DNA from: a virus
Lineage: Duplodnaviria; Heunggongvirae; Uroviricota; Caudoviricetes
IMG/VR virus record: IMGVR_UViG_2541047941_000003
Location: 1-47,471 of that record
Reading direction: 5' to 3' (one strand)
Length of the DNA stretch: 47,471 nt
The position numbers and the translations under genes were made by a program. Positions 40,430 through 44,761 of the stretch are shown here, one piece after another (positions within the stretch are counted from its first letter, which is position 1; each line of letters begins with the position of its first letter). The notes beneath the pieces were generated by a model. That model worked only from the letters and a program-made list of their open reading frames with translations. It was not told the DNA's origin and searched no databases.

Positions 40430-41215
40430 ATGAGAAAAGTTGGCAGTACAACTGACACCGCTGATGCTAATGGTGAATACACTAATGGTAATGTCGCTAA
40501 TGGTATTTCACCGACAATAATTAATGCTGAGATGATGAATACCTTTCAGCGTGAGCTGGTAAACGTTGTTGAGGGCGCGGGGCTTGAGCTTGATCCTGAT
40601 GATGATTCACAGGTTCTTAAAGCGATTGGTGGCGGTCGCCTGCTTAATATTGTCACCTTTACTAAGTCAGGGACTTACACTCCAACTAAAGGGACGAAAA
40701 GAGTGCGGGTGAAAGTTTGGGGAGCGGGGGGAGGTGGCCAGAATGCTCCAGTTAGTGTGGGCGCATCTGGAGGTTGTGCTGGTGGATTTTCGGAAGGGTT
40801 ATTTAATATTTCTGATAACGAAACTATATCTGTGACGATAGGTACTGGTGGCAGTGCTGTTGCTGCTGGTGTCTCGTCTAAAGGTGGGAATGGTGGTGAT
40901 ACAAGGTTCGGGAGTTTAATCTCAGCTACTGGAGGGAGTGGTGGCGGGGCTACAGTTCCTGCTGGAGGTATCGGAAGTGGCGGGAACATTTTAAATATTA
41001 CTGGCGGAATATCTCAAGGTGGTCTGTATTATGGTTCTGATGCTTTTATTGGCGGGGCTGGAGGATCTGCATTTTCATCAACGGGTGGCAATGGCCACTT
41101 CGGTAGTTCTGGCGATGATGGCGGTTTCCCCGGCTCAGGTGGTGCCGGGGGGAATGGTAACTATTCATCAGGAAAAGGAGCGAATGGTTTAGTTTACCTT
41201 GAAGAGTTTTCCTGA
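40430..41215 (+). CDS. Tail fibre protein with Gly-rich C-terminal domain
   Basis: 261 aa; N-terminal baseplate-attachment-like region then GGxGG-rich repeats. Confidence 0.6.
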   Translation: MRKVGSTTDTADANGEYTNGNVANGISPTIINAEMMNTFQRELVNVVEGAGLELDPDDDSQVLKAIGGGRLLNIVTFTKSGTYTPTKGTKRVRVKVWGAGGGGQNAPVSVGASGGCAGGFSEGLFNISDNETISVTIGTGGSAVAAGVSSKGGNGGDTRFGSLISATGGSGGGATVPAGGIGSGGNILNITGGISQGGLYYGSDAFIGGAGGSAFSSTGGNGHFGSSGDDGGFPGSGGAGGNGNYSSGKGANGLVYLEEFS

Positions 41216-42285
41216 TTATTTTTGCTTTGAGCGTCCGCCCTTATTTTTGCTCTAATTTTAATTAGTGGCTTGTCTATTAATATTACACAAACGATCCCAA
41301 GTGCAATTGATATTGGGTAGCCTAATAAAAAGATGGATAAGCCACGATTTTCACCACCAATAGCAAGCCATGCTAGAAATCCACCAAAATATTGACAAAG
41401 AAAAATTGGATAGGCCAGGTCACCAAACCACTTGAGTATTTTCTCAAGATGTATGTTTGTCTTTATTTTTAATAATACCAGGGTTGTAAACAATGCTATT
41501 ACATTATTGGTGTAGTAAAGTATTATGTTGTACTGACCTAATGCATTAATTGTATATAAATACCAATTGGTAATAAAAATCCCGATGCAAATAAATGTTA
41601 TTAAAAAAGCTTTGTGTGGAGAAAGATACATAGCTTTGAACTTTCTATGGGCAAAATAACCCAGAGAACCCATGCTAAAAGGAAGTGTTGCAGCAAGGAA
41701 TGGGAAATACGCCATATCAAAAGAATGGTGTACTACATATACGTAAGCATGATAAAGCAGTGAAAGCAGAATCGACGTAATGGCTGTAAATTTATTTCGG
41801 GCTATGAAAAGCCACAATAAAAAATAACATGTTATCTCAACACCCACTGACCATGATGATGTGACTATTCTGAATCTATTACCATCAATAGCAAAGTGAT
41901 AAATGGATGAAAAGGCACCGAATGGATTTGCTACAGCATTATCAGAAAGGAAAGCCCAGGGGAAGATTAAGAGGTTTCCTAATAAATCTCCAGGTAAGAA
42001 ATTGCCTGTCCAGTTTGAGTGGAATTCCTTTGCGGATGGAATTAATTTTATAATAAGAAAGCCCATGACGAGAAAAAATATATATGCCGGGAATAACCTC
42101 AGTATTCTATTTTTCCAAAACATAGAGAAGTTGAACTTGTATGTTTCATGCAAAATGTATGTTATTAAAAAACCACTGATAACATAGAAGCAATTCACTG
42201 CAAAGTTGCCAAGTGCAGGTATGCGAGCCGTTAAGTGAAAAGCAATGACGCACGATGCCAAAAAAAACCTTATTAGGCCAAGCAT
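41194..42285 (-). CDS. Acyltransferase family 3 integral membrane protein (O-antigen/polysaccharide O-acetyltransferase-like)
   Basis: 363 aa, ~10 TM helices, conserved N-terminal H in FHLTARIPALGN; very AT-rich; overlaps tail fibre 3' end convergently. Confidence 0.8.
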   Translation of the reverse strand: MLGLIRFFLASCVIAFHLTARIPALGNFAVNCFYVISGFLITYILHETYKFNFSMFWKNRILRLFPAYIFFLVMGFLIIKLIPSAKEFHSNWTGNFLPGDLLGNLLIFPWAFLSDNAVANPFGAFSSIYHFAIDGNRFRIVTSSWSVGVEITCYFLLWLFIARNKFTAITSILLSLLYHAYVYVVHHSFDMAYFPFLAATLPFSMGSLGYFAHRKFKAMYLSPHKAFLITFICIGIFITNWYLYTINALGQYNIILYYTNNVIALFTTLVLLKIKTNIHLEKILKWFGDLAYPIFLCQYFGGFLAWLAIGGENRGLSIFLLGYPISIALGIVCVILIDKPLIKIRAKIRADAQSKNNQENSSR

Positions 42286-42572
42286 TATTTTATCTCCGCG
42301 CCAATATCGCGCATTTTATTTATTACATTGTTAAGTTGCTCATCAGACAGAACAAGCTGAGCTGCAATATAAAACAGTATGTGTCTTGACATTACCCTGG
42401 GGCTCTCTCCGCCAGTGTATTTCCGCCATTGGCTATCGCTGGCTACACCTGCGAGCCCTGCCATTTGGTTTCCGGAGTAGTTTATTGCGGATTTCAGTCT
42501 GGCTAAATCTTCCTGCGTTGGAGGAGTGTATTTATTTATTAAAATCATTCTCTTACTTAACCGTTTAAACAC
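42285..42572 (-). CDS. Hypothetical protein translationally coupled upstream of acyltransferase
   Basis: 95 aa; stop overlaps acyltransferase start. Confidence 0.4.
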   Translation of the reverse strand: MFKRLSKRMILINKYTPPTQEDLARLKSAINYSGNQMAGLAGVASDSQWRKYTGGESPRVMSRHILFYIAAQLVLSDEQLNNVINKMRDIGAEIK

Positions 42573-42649
42573 GTAAGGCGATGTTAGCCCTGAAGGGGCG
42601 GGTCGTCAATCTTAATTGCTTCATTGAAAAGATGAAGACAGGAACAGGT

Positions 42650-44761
42650 ATGGACAAAAGATATAATACCGGCAATCCAAGACCTTCAAATAGCATGAAG
42701 GATCTGAATGATAACGCCCTGGCGTACGATGATTTCCTGAACAGCGAAAGCGATACTTTTATAGATCGTTTTGGTAACGCCCGGGATACGATAATTGGGG
42801 CTACTAAAAAAATGGCAGCTGCTACCGACGCTGTTATTGATGAAGCCCGCCAAAACCTGATCCCTCTCAGCCGGCAATACATGACGCTGGCAGCGGCGCA
42901 GGCGGATATAGCGAATATCCCGGTGGGTTCTACCACGTATTACCGCAGCCCTGACGATAGCGCGCTGGCTATTGAAGTAATTAACAATGGTGGCACTCTT
43001 GAGCCCACCGGTAGAAAAATGCCATCTAAGAAGTATGTAGATGATGCTATTGATCCCTACTCTCCTTTGTTAAATATAACACAGGCGTCAGAGTTCTTTC
43101 CTCCTGATGAATATAAAGATTCTGGGGTGGAAGAGGCTATACTAGATGAAAATAAAAAAATACTACTATCCAGGAAAGGTGTCGAGTGGTTTTTCCAAAA
43201 AATCAGAGCGGGGGAAATCAGCGCAGATCAATTCGCTGCTGAAATCCTTTCAGGAAACGACATTTTAATTTCCGGGCAGAGCCTTCTTGGAATCGTTCCT
43301 TTTTTACAGGCTTCGACTTTTGTCGATATATCTGAATTTTCGGATTCAGGGTATGACTCAGCAACTTTTTCTGAAAACAATAGAATTATTGTTGGCATTA
43401 AAGGCACCACCATTTATTTTAGCAAAATTGTTGTTGGCGATGCGGTAATTGAAGGAAGCGATTTTACAGAGGTAAAGGGTGTTACTGACGCATTATCACC
43501 TCTTCCAGAGTCAGTAACGTTTCTCTCACCTGATGAGTATGCAGATAGTGGATACATTTCTGCATCCACATCTGAAAACCTGGTTGTTATCGAGTCGCTG
43601 AAATCATCGGACCTGACAAATTCAGGTCAGCCTGATTACATTGCATTTAGCGAAGAGAAAGAAGGCTATGAGCAGATTTTCCTGTTTGATCGCGATACAG
43701 GTCAGCAGGTTCGTGTAACCAATACATCCAGTAATGAAACCTTGCCACGCGTTGATGGTGATAAGGTTATCTGGCAATCGGACAGGGAGACTAATCGCGC
43801 ACCGGGTGGGCAGTATTATTGCTATATCAATGATCTGACTGAGCACTCTGTAATGTCCAGGCCGATCATTTGCGGGTGGGGCCATTCAATGGTTGATAAC
43901 CCCCGTATGCTGACACACCTGCAGGAGCTAACCGGCTACACGGCCTATAACTTTGGCAAAAGCTCACGCACAAGCGTTGGCACAGCTGCTGCTCAGGGTG
44001 GGCGCAGAGCGTATTACGTTCCAGTTGGCGGCAGCATTCCTGCCAGCGGTTCGGTAACTCTTTCTCCGGCAAACCCGGGGCCACTGAGTTATTTTGCCAA
44101 CGCCGCAGCATCGACGCCGTTCCACGGTTCTCTGGCTGGCATTCCAGGCAATTTTTCATGGGATGGAACTAATGCCACATTCACACGTGATGCATCTGGT
44201 GATGCGGTTAACGTGCCTGTTGCCGTGCCATTCATTTGCGATCCGGTGACCACTGGTGCTATTACCGGAGGAATTCCGGCAGGAACATCTTTCCCTCTTC
44301 ACCCTGAATGTATAAATATTTTCTGGATGGGAAGGAATAATATTAGCCAGTCAATGCAGGTTCTCAGCGACACTATTGGTGTAGTTGAATACCTTAAATC
44401 TCTTGGGCAGAAGGTTATTATCCTGCCTGATTTTAACAGCAGTGTTGAGCCCCGTGGATCAGCAGGTTATGCAAACGTCATGTTATCAAACAGCATGATT
44501 AAAAAGAAATACCCTGAGTTATGGTGCGAAATTGATAGTGTTGATATGAGAGAAAACTTCGTAAACAACTATAATCCAGCATATTCTCAGGACGTTTCTG
44601 ACTTTGGAAATGATATCCCTCCAACTTCATTGAAGTATGACGGACTGCATCCTAGCCAATCGAAAGAAACATCTAACGCCCCTGAATATGCATTGCAGGC
44701 TGGCGCGGACGTAAACGCTGAATTTATTTACCAGAAATTTCAATTATTAGGGTGGGTGTAA
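42650..44761 (+). CDS. Tailspike/tail fibre-like protein with C-terminal SGNH (GDSL-type) hydrolase domain
   Basis: AGGA RBS; C-terminal blocks CGWGHSM, FWMGRNN, YDGLHPS resemble SGNH blocks I, III, V; internal DSGY..SEN repeats. Confidence 0.55.
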   Translation: MDKRYNTGNPRPSNSMKDLNDNALAYDDFLNSESDTFIDRFGNARDTIIGATKKMAAATDAVIDEARQNLIPLSRQYMTLAAAQADIANIPVGSTTYYRSPDDSALAIEVINNGGTLEPTGRKMPSKKYVDDAIDPYSPLLNITQASEFFPPDEYKDSGVEEAILDENKKILLSRKGVEWFFQKIRAGEISADQFAAEILSGNDILISGQSLLGIVPFLQASTFVDISEFSDSGYDSATFSENNRIIVGIKGTTIYFSKIVVGDAVIEGSDFTEVKGVTDALSPLPESVTFLSPDEYADSGYISASTSENLVVIESLKSSDLTNSGQPDYIAFSEEKEGYEQIFLFDRDTGQQVRVTNTSSNETLPRVDGDKVIWQSDRETNRAPGGQYYCYINDLTEHSVMSRPIICGWGHSMVDNPRMLTHLQELTGYTAYNFGKSSRTSVGTAAAQGGRRAYYVPVGGSIPASGSVTLSPANPGPLSYFANAAASTPFHGSLAGIPGNFSWDGTNATFTRDASGDAVNVPVAVPFICDPVTTGAITGGIPAGTSFPLHPECINIFWMGRNNISQSMQVLSDTIGVVEYLKSLGQKVIILPDFNSSVEPRGSAGYANVMLSNSMIKKKYPELWCEIDSVDMRENFVNNYNPAYSQDVSDFGNDIPPTSLKYDGLHPSQSKETSNAPEYALQAGADVNAEFIYQKFQLLGWV

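What the first reader, a model, noticed from the sequence alone, without database searches (positions are those of the whole stretch)
41194..44761. Acyltransferase-3 moron placed between tail fibre genes, next to a tailspike-like protein with an SGNH esterase-type domain
A very AT-rich acyltransferase-3 gene (family of phage O-antigen acetylases such as Oac/OafA) is inserted antisense between the Gly-rich tail fibre and a 704 aa tailspike-like protein. That protein's C-terminus carries SGNH-like blocks (GHSM, GRNN, DGLHPS), a fold used by carbohydrate O-acetyl esterases. The pair suggests the phage both acetylates the host surface polysaccharide in lysogens and carries a matching deacetylase in its virion.
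Basis: partly seen in the sequence, partly recalled or inferred. Interest (0 to 1): 0.6.

Follow-up and report, generated by a model that had tools for sequence, protein, structure and literature searches.

The report
Prophage acyltransferase beside esterase tail spike
An E. coli prophage does carry a membrane sugar-acyltransferase gene next to a tail spike ending in an esterase domain, but comparison with related prophages shows that the two are exchanged independently, so they look like two ordinary, separately known host-recognition modules and not a matched pair.

Summary

The "matched acetylase/deacetylase pair" reading is not supported. The region consists of two cassettes that recombine independently.
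- Cassette 1 (about 40700-42089) is the tip of the Gly-rich fibre plus most of the AT3 gene. They are replaced together in otherwise 99%-identical backbones.
- Cassette 2 (about 43030-45600) is the spike head plus a 267-aa partner ORF.

The same AT3 allele sits beside at least five different spike heads. The same esterase head occurs in other prophages without any AT3; only 1 of 49 IMG/VR loci has one. AT3 homologues in many other prophages lie convergent to the last tail-fibre gene, with no spike present.

Most likely the AT3 is a lysogenic-conversion gene linked to the fibre, and the spike is an independent virion esterase. This is a new member of known kinds, of modest interest.

The parts
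40430..41215 (+). Gly-rich tail fibre, 261 aa. Residues 1-90 are the conserved baseplate-anchor part; residues from about 91 (window 40700 onward) are the exchangeable Gly-rich tip.
   Evidence: PF21722 at E 1e-9. PHROG tail-fibre families. DNA homology to the Klebsiella variant stops at 40700.
40700..42089 (.). Variable cassette 1: the fibre tip plus AT3 codons about 66-363. They are replaced together in otherwise 99%-identical backbones.
   Evidence: blastn breakpoints against L008. Protein identities: YmfQ 99.5%, XRE ORF 98%, but fibre 55% and AT3 49%. The DY612 variant has a gp53-like fibre tip and an AT3 only 25% identical.
41194..42285 (-). AT3-only membrane O-acyltransferase, 363 aa. 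Motifs: R6-X10-H17 and R60-I-L-R63. Its 3' end overlaps the fibre gene by 22 nt, convergently.
   Evidence: PF01757. The motifs are invariant or nearly so in 20 homologues, and the literature names them as the essential AT3 motifs. Multiple hydrophobic segments. GC 0.352.
42285..42548 (-). 87-aa XRE-type helix-turn-helix ORF. Its stop overlaps the AT3 start (TAATG). The mechanical ORF extends to a GTG at 42572.
   Evidence: phrog_20491 at E 1e-29. Source names 'XRE family transcriptional regulator'. Also present upstream of the 65%-identical AT3 in L005.
42581..42609 (-). Sigma-70-like promoter candidate (TTGACG-17-TAACAT) just upstream of the XRE-AT3 unit.
   Evidence: This is weak evidence: the number of such sites in the region is not above the shuffled expectation.
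42650..43054 (+). Spike residues 1-135: conserved N-terminal anchor domain shared by many different receptor-binding proteins.
   Evidence: PHROG hits 9750, 3257, 14987 and others. 81-100% identical across loci whose heads differ.
43030..45600 (.). Variable cassette 2: the spike from about residue 125 to its end, plus the 267-aa ORF.
   Evidence: Homology to the HS, JNQH497, L097 and L101 loci ends at 43011-43045 and resumes at 45593-45613. L004 shares 42827-46208.
43055..43849 (+). Spike residues 136-400: a low-confidence stalk with PDEY-DSG-like repeats, followed by PD40/TolB-like beta strands. The latter are the source of the database name 'TolB family protein'.
   Evidence: pLDDT below 50 for residues 133-328. 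TolB blades align over about 75 columns. TIGR02800 scores 26 bits against a cut-off of 343.
43850..44761 (+). Spike residues 401-703: SGNH hydrolase (esterase) domain with an inserted beta subdomain. Catalytic codons: Ser413 43886-43888, Asn563 44336-44338, Asp664 44639-44641, His667 44648-44650.
44763..45566 (+). 267-aa ORF of unknown fold; the constant partner of this esterase head.
   Evidence: phrog_19357. A homologue lies directly downstream of the SGNH domain in 58 of 60 viral loci, at 25-99% identity. No PDB or Pfam hit.

Best explanation
This is the host-recognition end of an E. coli/Klebsiella temperate myovirus prophage with a Mu-like baseplate, about 1-5 kb from the prophage's right end. 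It holds two separately exchangeable modules.

Module 1 is the short Gly-rich tail fibre and, convergent with it, a two-gene unit: an XRE-type ORF followed by an AT3-only acyltransferase. That unit is transcribed against the late operon.
- The AT3 is a polytopic inner-membrane enzyme. By analogy with Oac, WbaK and other AT3-only proteins, it takes an acyl group from cytoplasmic acyl-CoA and places it on a surface glycan at the periplasmic face.
- It is most likely expressed from the prophage and changes the lysogen's surface (lysogenic conversion). That would hinder adsorption by phages that need the unmodified glycan, plausibly including phages that carry the co-inherited fibre tip.

Module 2 is a second receptor-binding protein. 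It has a conserved N-terminal anchor, a stalk, and a C-terminal SGNH esterase domain homologous to the C-terminal domain of the epsilon15 tailspike. Its dedicated 267-aa partner gene follows it.
- On the virion this spike most likely binds an O-acetylated O-antigen or capsule and removes the acetyl groups. This would be the first, serotype-specific step of adsorption, as shown for G7C gp63.1 and for Klebsiella prophage SGNH fibres.

The two modules are neighbours because both specificity determinants cluster at the end of the tail operon, not because one undoes the other.

Shown here: the gene identities, folds and motifs, the cassette boundaries and the distribution. Inferred: the substrates, the timing of expression, and the link between the AT3 and the fibre's receptor.
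For: AT3 identity:
- Pfam and PHROG matches.
- R-X10-H and RXXR motifs are conserved, and the AT3 review names them as essential.
- Hydrophobic segments run along the whole protein.

Esterase identity:
- phmmer E 1.6e-47 to 9sij/9sim over residues 408-702.
- Those chains are epsilon15 gp20, because aligned fragments were found exactly in gp20. tblastn gives 36.5% identity.
- A preprint title calls this part of gp20 a 'protruding esterase domain'.
- S413, G561-R-N563 and D664-x-x-H667 are invariant in 35 homologues.

Independence of the two modules:
- One AT3 allele sits beside TolB/SGNH, SGNH/GDSL, sialate-O-acetylesterase, CotH and hypothetical heads.
- The same head occurs without an AT3.
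- 1 of 49 loci with a relative of this esterase domain holds this AT3 subfamily, plus two loci with a distant AT3.
- Breakpoints lie at 40700/42089 and about 43030/45600.

AT3 goes with the fibre:
- The Klebsiella variant (YmfQ 99.5%, XRE 98%, fibre 55%, AT3 49%) and the DY612 variant (gp53-like tip, AT3 about 25% identical) change both genes together.
- AT3 homologues at 29-65% identity lie convergent to the last tail-fibre gene in Pantoea, Stenotrophomonas, Pseudomonas and other prophages.
- epsilon15 has the same layout: the tailspike gene is followed by convergent serotype-conversion genes.

Literature:
- SGNH receptor-binding proteins are the commonest enzymatic RBP domain in Klebsiella prophages, and two were shown to be active esterases.
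- Sf6 Oac and BTP1 GtrC protect lysogens from phage.
Against: - No experiment here shows that the AT3 is expressed, what it acylates, or that the spike hydrolyses anything.
- The linkage of AT3 and fibre tip could be purely physical. Their 3' ends abut or overlap, so no conserved DNA lies between them for recombination, whereas 940 nt of conserved sequence separates the AT3 from the spike head.
- AT3 relatedness does not track fibre type strictly. The Pantoea AT3 is 53% identical but follows an unrelated gp53-like fibre.
- The promoter-like site is not above chance, and no terminator was found.
- 27 of the 32 AT3-bearing E. coli loci have esterase-type spike heads. This could hint at a functional relation, although esterase heads are about as common in relatives that lack the AT3.
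Confidence: 0.6

Rival explanations
1. Matched writer/eraser pair. The prophage AT3 acetylates the host polysaccharide, and the virion spike carries the matching deacetylase. The phage would then lock the surface against competitors while keeping its own access, or use the esterase as a receptor-destroying enzyme to escape from debris of lysed lysogens.
For: - Both activities are credibly encoded about 400 nt apart on divergent strands.
- 27 of 32 E. coli loci with this AT3 have an esterase-type spike head.
- The literature raises acetylation/deacetylation as a layer of phage-phage competition.
Against: - The heads next to one and the same AT3 belong to different esterase families (epsilon15-like SGNH, other SGNH/GDSL, SASA) or are not esterases at all (CotH, phrog_9750).
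- This esterase family almost never has an AT3 nearby: 1 of 49 loci.
- Prophages without an AT3 show the same predominance of esterase heads.
- The cassette boundaries separate the two genes.
- Acetylating the esterase's own substrate would create receptor on the lysogen, not mask it. This is an inference, and epsilon15 does the opposite: it abolishes host O-acetylation.
Confidence: 0.12
2. The AT3 is cargo with no link to any tail protein of this phage. It acylates some envelope glycan (O-antigen, enterobacterial common antigen, colanic acid, osmoregulated glucans) for the benefit of the host, for example serum resistance, immune evasion or resistance to unrelated phages. It sits after the fibre gene only because the end of the late operon tolerates insertions.
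For: - Its low GC (0.352) marks a foreign origin.
- The exact protein occurs in E. coli, the K. pneumoniae complex and K. aerogenes, which have very different O and K antigens.
- The same slot holds unrelated AT3 genes in either orientation.
- AT3 proteins have many substrates.
Against: - The position convergent to the last fibre gene is conserved across very different phage backbones and bacterial orders.
- The AT3 is replaced jointly with the fibre tip in three variants of the same backbone.
- Both facts fit a receptor-related role better, although neither proves one.
Confidence: 0.2
3. The SGNH domain of the spike is a binding or structural module without catalytic activity, or it acts as a transferase and not a hydrolase.
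For: - No Pfam SGNH/GDSL model reaches threshold on this protein.
Against: - The Ser, Asn, Asp and His catalytic residues are invariant across homologues of 33-90% identity.
- The top structural neighbours are esterases.
- Related phage SGNH receptor-binding proteins were shown to be active esterases.
- A virion protein outside the cell has no acetyl donor (inference).
Confidence: 0.08

Closest known systems
Salmonella phage epsilon15 tailspike gp20, C-terminal 'petal'/esterase domain (PDB 9sij, 9sim) with the adjacent serotype-conversion genes 21 and 22
   Same: - The spike's residues 408-702 align with the gp20 C-terminal domain at E 1.6e-47 and 36.5% identity, with the same GHS, GRN and DxLH motifs.
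- In both phages the receptor-binding gene is followed by convergently transcribed surface-modification genes.
   Different: - epsilon15 gp20 is a 1070-aa beta-helix endorhamnosidase that carries the esterase as a side domain. Here the esterase is the whole head of a 703-aa protein with no predicted beta-helix.
- epsilon15 conversion abolishes O-acetylation and changes the polymerase linkage. This prophage carries an acyltransferase.
- epsilon15 is a podovirus. This prophage is a myovirus with a Mu-like baseplate.
E. coli phage G7C gp63.1 and the SGNH-domain tail fibres of Klebsiella prophages (PMC13123978)
   Same: - Many close homologues of this spike are Klebsiella prophage proteins.
- The paper also notes acetyltransferases in 5-30% of prophages.
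   Different: - G7C is a virulent N4-like podovirus and depends on host-encoded O-acetylation.
- There is no sequence-level similarity to gp63.1; the resemblance is at fold level only.
- This spike has a PD40-like segment and a dedicated 267-aa partner gene.
Phage-encoded O-antigen acetylases placed next to receptor-binding genes: Shigella phage Sf6 Oac and Salmonella prophage BTP1 GtrC/OafB
   Same: - AT3 membrane acyltransferases carried by temperate phages that modify the O-antigen in lysogens and block the phage's own spike.
- Oac has the same AT3-only architecture with the RXXR motif.
   Different: - No close sequence relationship: no Sf6 or other known phage hit at E below 1e-5.
- BTP1 GtrC has a fused SGNH domain; this protein does not.
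- In those systems the blocked spike is a glycosidase. Here the neighbouring spike is an esterase, and the co-inherited partner is a Gly-rich fibre.

Membership tests
Acyltransferase-3 (AT3, PF01757) carbohydrate O-acyltransferases | Pfam AT3 domain above the gathering score, covering the whole protein | tested here: met
   57.9 bits against a cut-off of 31; residues 4-336 of 363.
Acyltransferase-3 (AT3, PF01757) carbohydrate O-acyltransferases | R/K-X10-H motif in TM1 and RXXR motif in the first cytoplasmic loop | tested here: met
   R6...H17 and R60-I-L-R63 are present. R60 and R63 are invariant and R6 and H17 at least 90% conserved in 20 homologues. The review names both motifs as essential.
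Acyltransferase-3 (AT3, PF01757) carbohydrate O-acyltransferases | Polytopic membrane protein (about 10 TM helices) | tested here: inconclusive
   A Kyte-Doolittle scan finds hydrophobic segments along the whole length. No dedicated topology predictor was available.
Acyltransferase-3 (AT3, PF01757) carbohydrate O-acyltransferases | Acylates a defined surface glycan | not testable with these tools
   Needs NMR or mass spectrometry of glycans from lysogens with and without the gene.
OafA/OafB (GtrC) type AT3-SGNH fusion O-antigen acetylases | AT3 domain fused to a periplasmic SGNH domain | tested here: not met
   The protein is 363 aa and ends with the AT3 domain. It has the AT3-only architecture, like Oac and WbaK.
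SGNH/GDSL hydrolases | Flavodoxin-like alpha/beta/alpha SGNH fold | tested here: met
   [not shown]
SGNH/GDSL hydrolases | Block I Ser, block II Gly, block III Asn, block V Asp-x-x-His | tested here: met
   G-H-S413, N434-F-G436, G561-R-N563 and D664-G-L-H667 are present. S413, N563, D664 and H667 are invariant and G436 at least 90% conserved in 35 homologues.
SGNH/GDSL hydrolases | Match to a curated sequence model (Pfam or NCBIfam) | tested here: not met
   No Pfam or NCBIfam SGNH model matches at E below 0.01. One homologue, P0105, carries PF13472. Membership therefore rests on fold, motifs and homology to epsilon15 gp20.
SGNH/GDSL hydrolases | Esterase activity | not testable with these tools
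   Needs an enzyme assay.
TolB family (the name in RefSeq) | Full TolB architecture: N-terminal domain plus a six-bladed propeller | tested here: not met
   TIGR02800 scores 26 bits against a cut-off of 343 and matches residues 293-380 only. Foldseek aligns about 75 columns, roughly two blades. The name is misleading.
Moron (autonomous gene unit added to a phage late region) | Deviant base composition | tested here: met
   GC 0.352 against 0.517 for the window.
Moron (autonomous gene unit added to a phage late region) | Own promoter and terminator | tested here: inconclusive
   One promoter-like site sits in the right place (42609-42581). However, site counts are not above the shuffled expectation, and no terminator was found; the 3' end overlaps the fibre gene.
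Moron (autonomous gene unit added to a phage late region) | Present or absent among otherwise similar phages | tested here: inconclusive
   Every examined prophage with this backbone has some AT3 in the slot. A different prophage lineage with the same spike lacks it.

The most novel reading that the evidence does not exclude
The prophage writes an acyl mark on a surface glycan shared across E. coli and Klebsiella, and its exchangeable esterase spikes can erase that mark. The phage lineage would then keep privileged access to hosts that it has made resistant to competitors.

A second, less radical novel reading is that the fibre tip and the acceptor-side part of the AT3 form a portable 'recognise-and-mask' cassette, in which receptor specificity and receptor modification are swapped as one unit, with breakpoints inside both genes.
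Probability: 0.12. Interest if true: 0.7.

Novelty: new member of a known kind. Interest (0 to 1): 0.3.

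Why it matters
Temperate-phage receptor-binding proteins and lysogenic-conversion genes decide which strains a phage can infect and how lysogens look to other phages and to the immune system.

This locus shows, in one E. coli/Klebsiella prophage lineage, two specificity cassettes side by side that recombine independently:
- a fibre tip plus an acyltransferase;
- an esterase spike plus its partner protein.

That helps when reading prophage tail regions. Examples are the misleading 'TolB family protein' annotation and the unannotated XRE ORF. 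It also gives a concrete, testable case for the acetylation/deacetylation layer of phage-host specificity recently proposed for Klebsiella.

It does not by itself reveal a new mechanism.

Tried and rejected
- Invertible segment. A Pin/Hin-type invertase gene lies at 46923-47471, so I looked for inverted repeats flanking the antisense unit or the spike. Only short pairs of 71-88% complementarity were found, which look like chance. Rejected.
- Close relatives among sequenced phages. Megablast of 40400-45600 against 50,697 phage records found nothing. The AT3 protein gave only matches of 28% identity or less.
- Reading the epsilon15 preprint. It was found by search but could not be opened. Only its title and the start of its abstract are used.
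- Full-length spike model. It was mediocre: pLDDT 64.5, with residues 133-328 below 50. Its Foldseek hits were weak. A model of the domain alone solved this.
- Genome-contig scan for AT3 relatives. It returned mostly distant, non-phage loci, because the collection holds one genome per species. It gave only a few of the distant prophage examples used for the fibre-adjacent rule.
- Defence-system models. PADLOC gave no hit for the AT3, the XRE ORF, ORF267, orf86, the UmuD-like ORF or the spike.
- Identity of ORF267 and the XRE ORF. No PDB, Pfam or NCBIfam hit was usable. The accessory ORFs that follow different spike heads show no detectable similarity to one another.
- tRNA genes: none in the window.

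Full report
**What is in the sequence**

The region 40430-46200 is the distal end of the tail operon of a prophage that fills most of the window. Terminase, portal, sheath, tape measure and a Mu-like baseplate (gp44-48/YmfQ) lie upstream.

The genes, in order, are:
- a 261-aa Gly-rich tail fibre (40430-41215 +; PF21722 and tail-fibre PHROGs);
- a 363-aa AT3 acyltransferase on the other strand (41194-42285 -);
- an 87-aa ORF (42285-42548 -) whose stop overlaps the AT3 start (TAATG). Source records call it an XRE-family regulator;
- after a 100-nt divergent gap, a 703-aa protein (42650-44761 +);
- a 267-aa ORF (44763-45566 +);
- an 86-aa ORF and a UmuD-like ORF.

The prophage ends shortly after, next to a truncated yecD and a Pin-like invertase gene.

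The AT3 gene has GC 0.352, against 0.517 for the window.

**The acyltransferase**

It matches Pfam PF01757 over its whole length (E 1.2e-15) and phrog_3333 'O-acetyltransferase'.

In an alignment of 20 homologues of 30-65% identity, R6 and H17 (R-X10-H in the first helix) are nearly invariant and N59-R60-x-L62-R63 (RXXR) is invariant. The AT3 review names these as the essential motifs of the family.

The protein has no fused SGNH domain. It therefore has the AT3-only architecture of Oac and WbaK, not that of OafA/OafB.

It is not close to any sequenced phage protein; the best hit is 28% identical. The claim 'family of Oac/OafA' holds only at superfamily level.

**The spike**

Residues 1-135 are an anchor domain shared by many receptor-binding proteins with different heads.

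Residues 136-328 are predicted with low confidence.

Residues 330-400 resemble two TolB/PD40 blades. This explains the RefSeq name 'TolB family protein', but the TolB model scores 26 bits against a cut-off of 343.

Residues 401-703 are the domain at issue:
- They match PDB 9sij/9sim 'Tail spike protein' at E 1.6e-47.
- Fragments of that alignment occur exactly in gp20 of Salmonella phage epsilon15. tblastn gives 36.5% identity over 96% of the domain.
- A 2026 preprint titles this part of gp20 a 'protruding esterase domain'. I could not open the text.
- In 35 homologues, S413, G561-R562-N563, and D664, L666 and H667 are invariant, and G436 is nearly so. Together these are SGNH blocks I, II, III and V.
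- A model of the domain alone has pLDDT 88.6 and pTM 0.86.

**Are the two a matched pair?**

Comparative data say no.

(a) One AT3 allele, many spike heads.
- Among 5,426 complete E. coli genomes, 32 carry this AT3 at 97-100% nucleotide identity.
- The adjacent spike is annotated TolB family in 3 genomes, SGNH/GDSL in 8, sialate O-acetylesterase in 16, CotH kinase in 1 and hypothetical in 4.
- IMG/VR contigs show the same pattern.

(b) The same head without an AT3.
- The same spike head (98% aa) with its 267-aa partner (99%) occurs in a different prophage type with a DUF2612 baseplate and no acyltransferase.
- Sister prophages of that type carry SGNH/GDSL or sialate-esterase heads, also without an AT3.

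(c) A systematic scan.
- I scanned IMG/VR with the esterase domain. Sixty loci have a match of more than 200 aa, at 40-99% identity.
- Of the 49 with at least 5 kb of upstream DNA, one has an AT3 of this subfamily.
- A profile search adds only L211 (a locus with just a 32-aa remnant of the domain, on the same contig as L096) and a distant AT3 in two near-identical loci, L161 and L162.
- By contrast, a homologue of the 267-aa ORF lies directly downstream in 58 of the 60 loci, and its identity tracks that of the esterase. That ORF, not the AT3, is the esterase's constant partner.

(d) Cassette boundaries.
- Against E. coli HS, JNQH497 and two viral contigs, similarity of about 98-99% runs to 43011-43045 and, where it resumes (JNQH497 and the two contigs, not HS), does so at 45593-45613.
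- Against a Klebsiella prophage, similarity of 98.9% runs to 40700, is lost, and resumes at 42089-43026.
- So there are two variable cassettes separated by about 940 nt of conserved DNA. That conserved DNA holds AT3 codons 1-65, the XRE ORF and the spike anchor.

**What the AT3 goes with**

In the Klebsiella variant, gp47 and YmfQ are 99% identical, the XRE ORF 98% and the spike anchor 89%. The fibre, however, is 55% identical and the AT3 49%.

In E. coli DY612 the backbone and the fibre anchor (83%) are kept. The fibre tip is gp53-like, the AT3 is a different subfamily (about 25% identity) in the other orientation, and the spike is a CotH type.

A 65%-identical AT3, with its XRE ORF at 71%, follows a 75%-identical Gly-rich tip in a prophage with a quite different baseplate and no spike at all.

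Pantoea prophages have a 53%-identical AT3 convergent to a gp53-like fibre and its chaperone. Again there is no spike, and the 86-aa and UmuD-like ORFs follow.

More distant AT3s in Stenotrophomonas, Pseudomonas and other prophages are convergent to genes that PHROGs call tail fibres.

The rule is therefore 'AT3 convergent to the last fibre gene'. The window's lineage has an extra spike cassette beyond it. epsilon15 has the same layout: its tailspike gene is followed by convergent serotype-conversion genes.

**Mechanism proposed**

Shown: the gene identities, motifs, fold, cassette structure and distribution.

Inferred:
- The AT3, probably expressed in the lysogen from the divergent intergenic region, acylates a surface glycan. 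One promoter-like site lies at 42609-42581, but it is not above chance. The effect would be to mask a receptor, as Sf6 Oac and BTP1 GtrC do.
- Its genetic partner is the Gly-rich fibre tip, so that fibre's receptor is the most economical candidate target.
- The exact AT3 and fibre proteins occur in E. coli, the K. pneumoniae complex and K. aerogenes, while the spike heads vary. This fits a variable primary receptor for the spike and a more conserved target for the fibre and AT3. It is speculation.
- The spike most likely deacetylates an O-acetylated O-antigen or capsule during adsorption, as shown for G7C gp63.1 and for two Klebsiella prophage fibres.
- Acetylating the esterase's own substrate would create receptor on the lysogen, not hide it. 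epsilon15, whose spike carries the homologous domain, abolishes host O-acetylation on lysogeny.

**Caveats**

- The fibre-AT3 linkage may be purely physical. The two 3' ends overlap by 22 nt and leave no conserved DNA between them.
- AT3 similarity does not strictly follow fibre type. The Pantoea AT3 is 53% identical, yet its fibre is unrelated.
- 27 of the 32 AT3-bearing E. coli loci have esterase-type heads. Relatives without an AT3 show a similar predominance, and SGNH domains are the commonest enzymatic domain of Klebsiella prophage receptor-binding proteins. I therefore read this as base rate, but I did not test it with phylogenetic correction.

**Novelty and score**

Each element is a known kind:
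- phage-borne AT3 conversion genes next to receptor-binding genes (Sf6, BTP1, epsilon15 layout);
- SGNH esterase receptor-binding proteins (G7C, Klebsiella prophages, epsilon15 petal).

The general idea that prophage acetyltransferases and virion deacetylases interact at population level is already in print.

This locus is a new member of these kinds. Its useful details are the two-cassette structure, the XRE-AT3 unit, the 267-aa partner of the esterase head and the misleading TolB name.

Interest is 0.3. The matched writer/eraser reading remains possible at roughly 0.1 and would be considerably more interesting if experiments supported it.

Noticed in passing
window 44763-45566 (+): The 267-aa ORF after the spike has no Pfam, PDB or NCBIfam hit. 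A homologue lies directly downstream of the epsilon15-like SGNH domain in 58 of 60 viral loci, at 25-99% identity that tracks the esterase's own. ORFs in the same position after other spike heads (HS, JNQH497, Klebsiella 'ArabFuran-catal') are unrelated to it. It looks like a head-specific chaperone or distal subunit.
   Followed up: partly
window 42285-42572 (-): A small XRE-type ORF (87 aa from the ATG at 42548) is translationally coupled to the AT3 (TAATG). It is 98% conserved even where the AT3 is swapped for a 49%-identical allele. It is missing or shortened in several RefSeq annotations, for example absent in NZ_CM148361 and called as 59 aa in JNQH497.
   Followed up: partly
window 42650-44761; RefSeq WP_021571832: The database name 'TolB family protein' rests on about two PD40-like blades (TIGR02800: 26 bits against a cut-off of 343). 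The protein is a phage receptor-binding spike with an SGNH esterase head.
   Followed up: yes
window 46495-47471: A truncated yecD (isochorismatase-family) fragment (46495-46731, -) and a complete 182-aa Pin/Hin-type serine invertase gene (46923-47471, +) follow the prophage end. No convincing inverted repeats flank any tail gene, so the invertase does not appear to flip this region.
   Followed up: partly
window 45653-46200 (+); L011, L104-L116: The pair of an 86-aa ORF (phrog_3893) and an overlapping UmuD-like S24-peptidase fragment (106 aa) is conserved at the end of the tail region from E. coli to Pantoea prophages, with or without the spike cassette. Its role is unknown.
   Followed up: no
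L147 (E. coli DY612, NZ_CP047469) 3305-6923: The same backbone carries a gp53-like fibre tip, an AT3 of a different subfamily (about 25% identity) on the same strand as the tail genes, and a CotH-kinase-type spike. The slot between fibre and spike accepts unrelated acyltransferases in either orientation.
   Followed up: partly
L001 (NZ_CM148361) 4821-5333: In one genome with a 100%-identical copy of the region, the baseplate J gene is truncated and joined to Rac-like early genes (YdaS, RecE). There the tail end survives as a prophage remnant.
   Followed up: no
window 43055-43630 (spike residues about 136-328): By eye there are roughly two and a half copies of a motif of about 70 aa ([PS][DE]E[YF]xDSG...EN..I). 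AlphaFold gives pLDDT below 50 here. A shifted 32% match appeared only against the L004 homologue; a self-blastp found nothing significant. This may be a trimeric stalk.
   Followed up: partly
L161 and L162, 10570-11763 (+): A distant AT3-like ORF (profile E 3.8e-6) lies downstream of the esterase spike and its partner ORF in two near-identical viral contigs. Apart from the window's own lineage, these are the only loci with an esterase head of this family that have any AT3 nearby.
   Followed up: no
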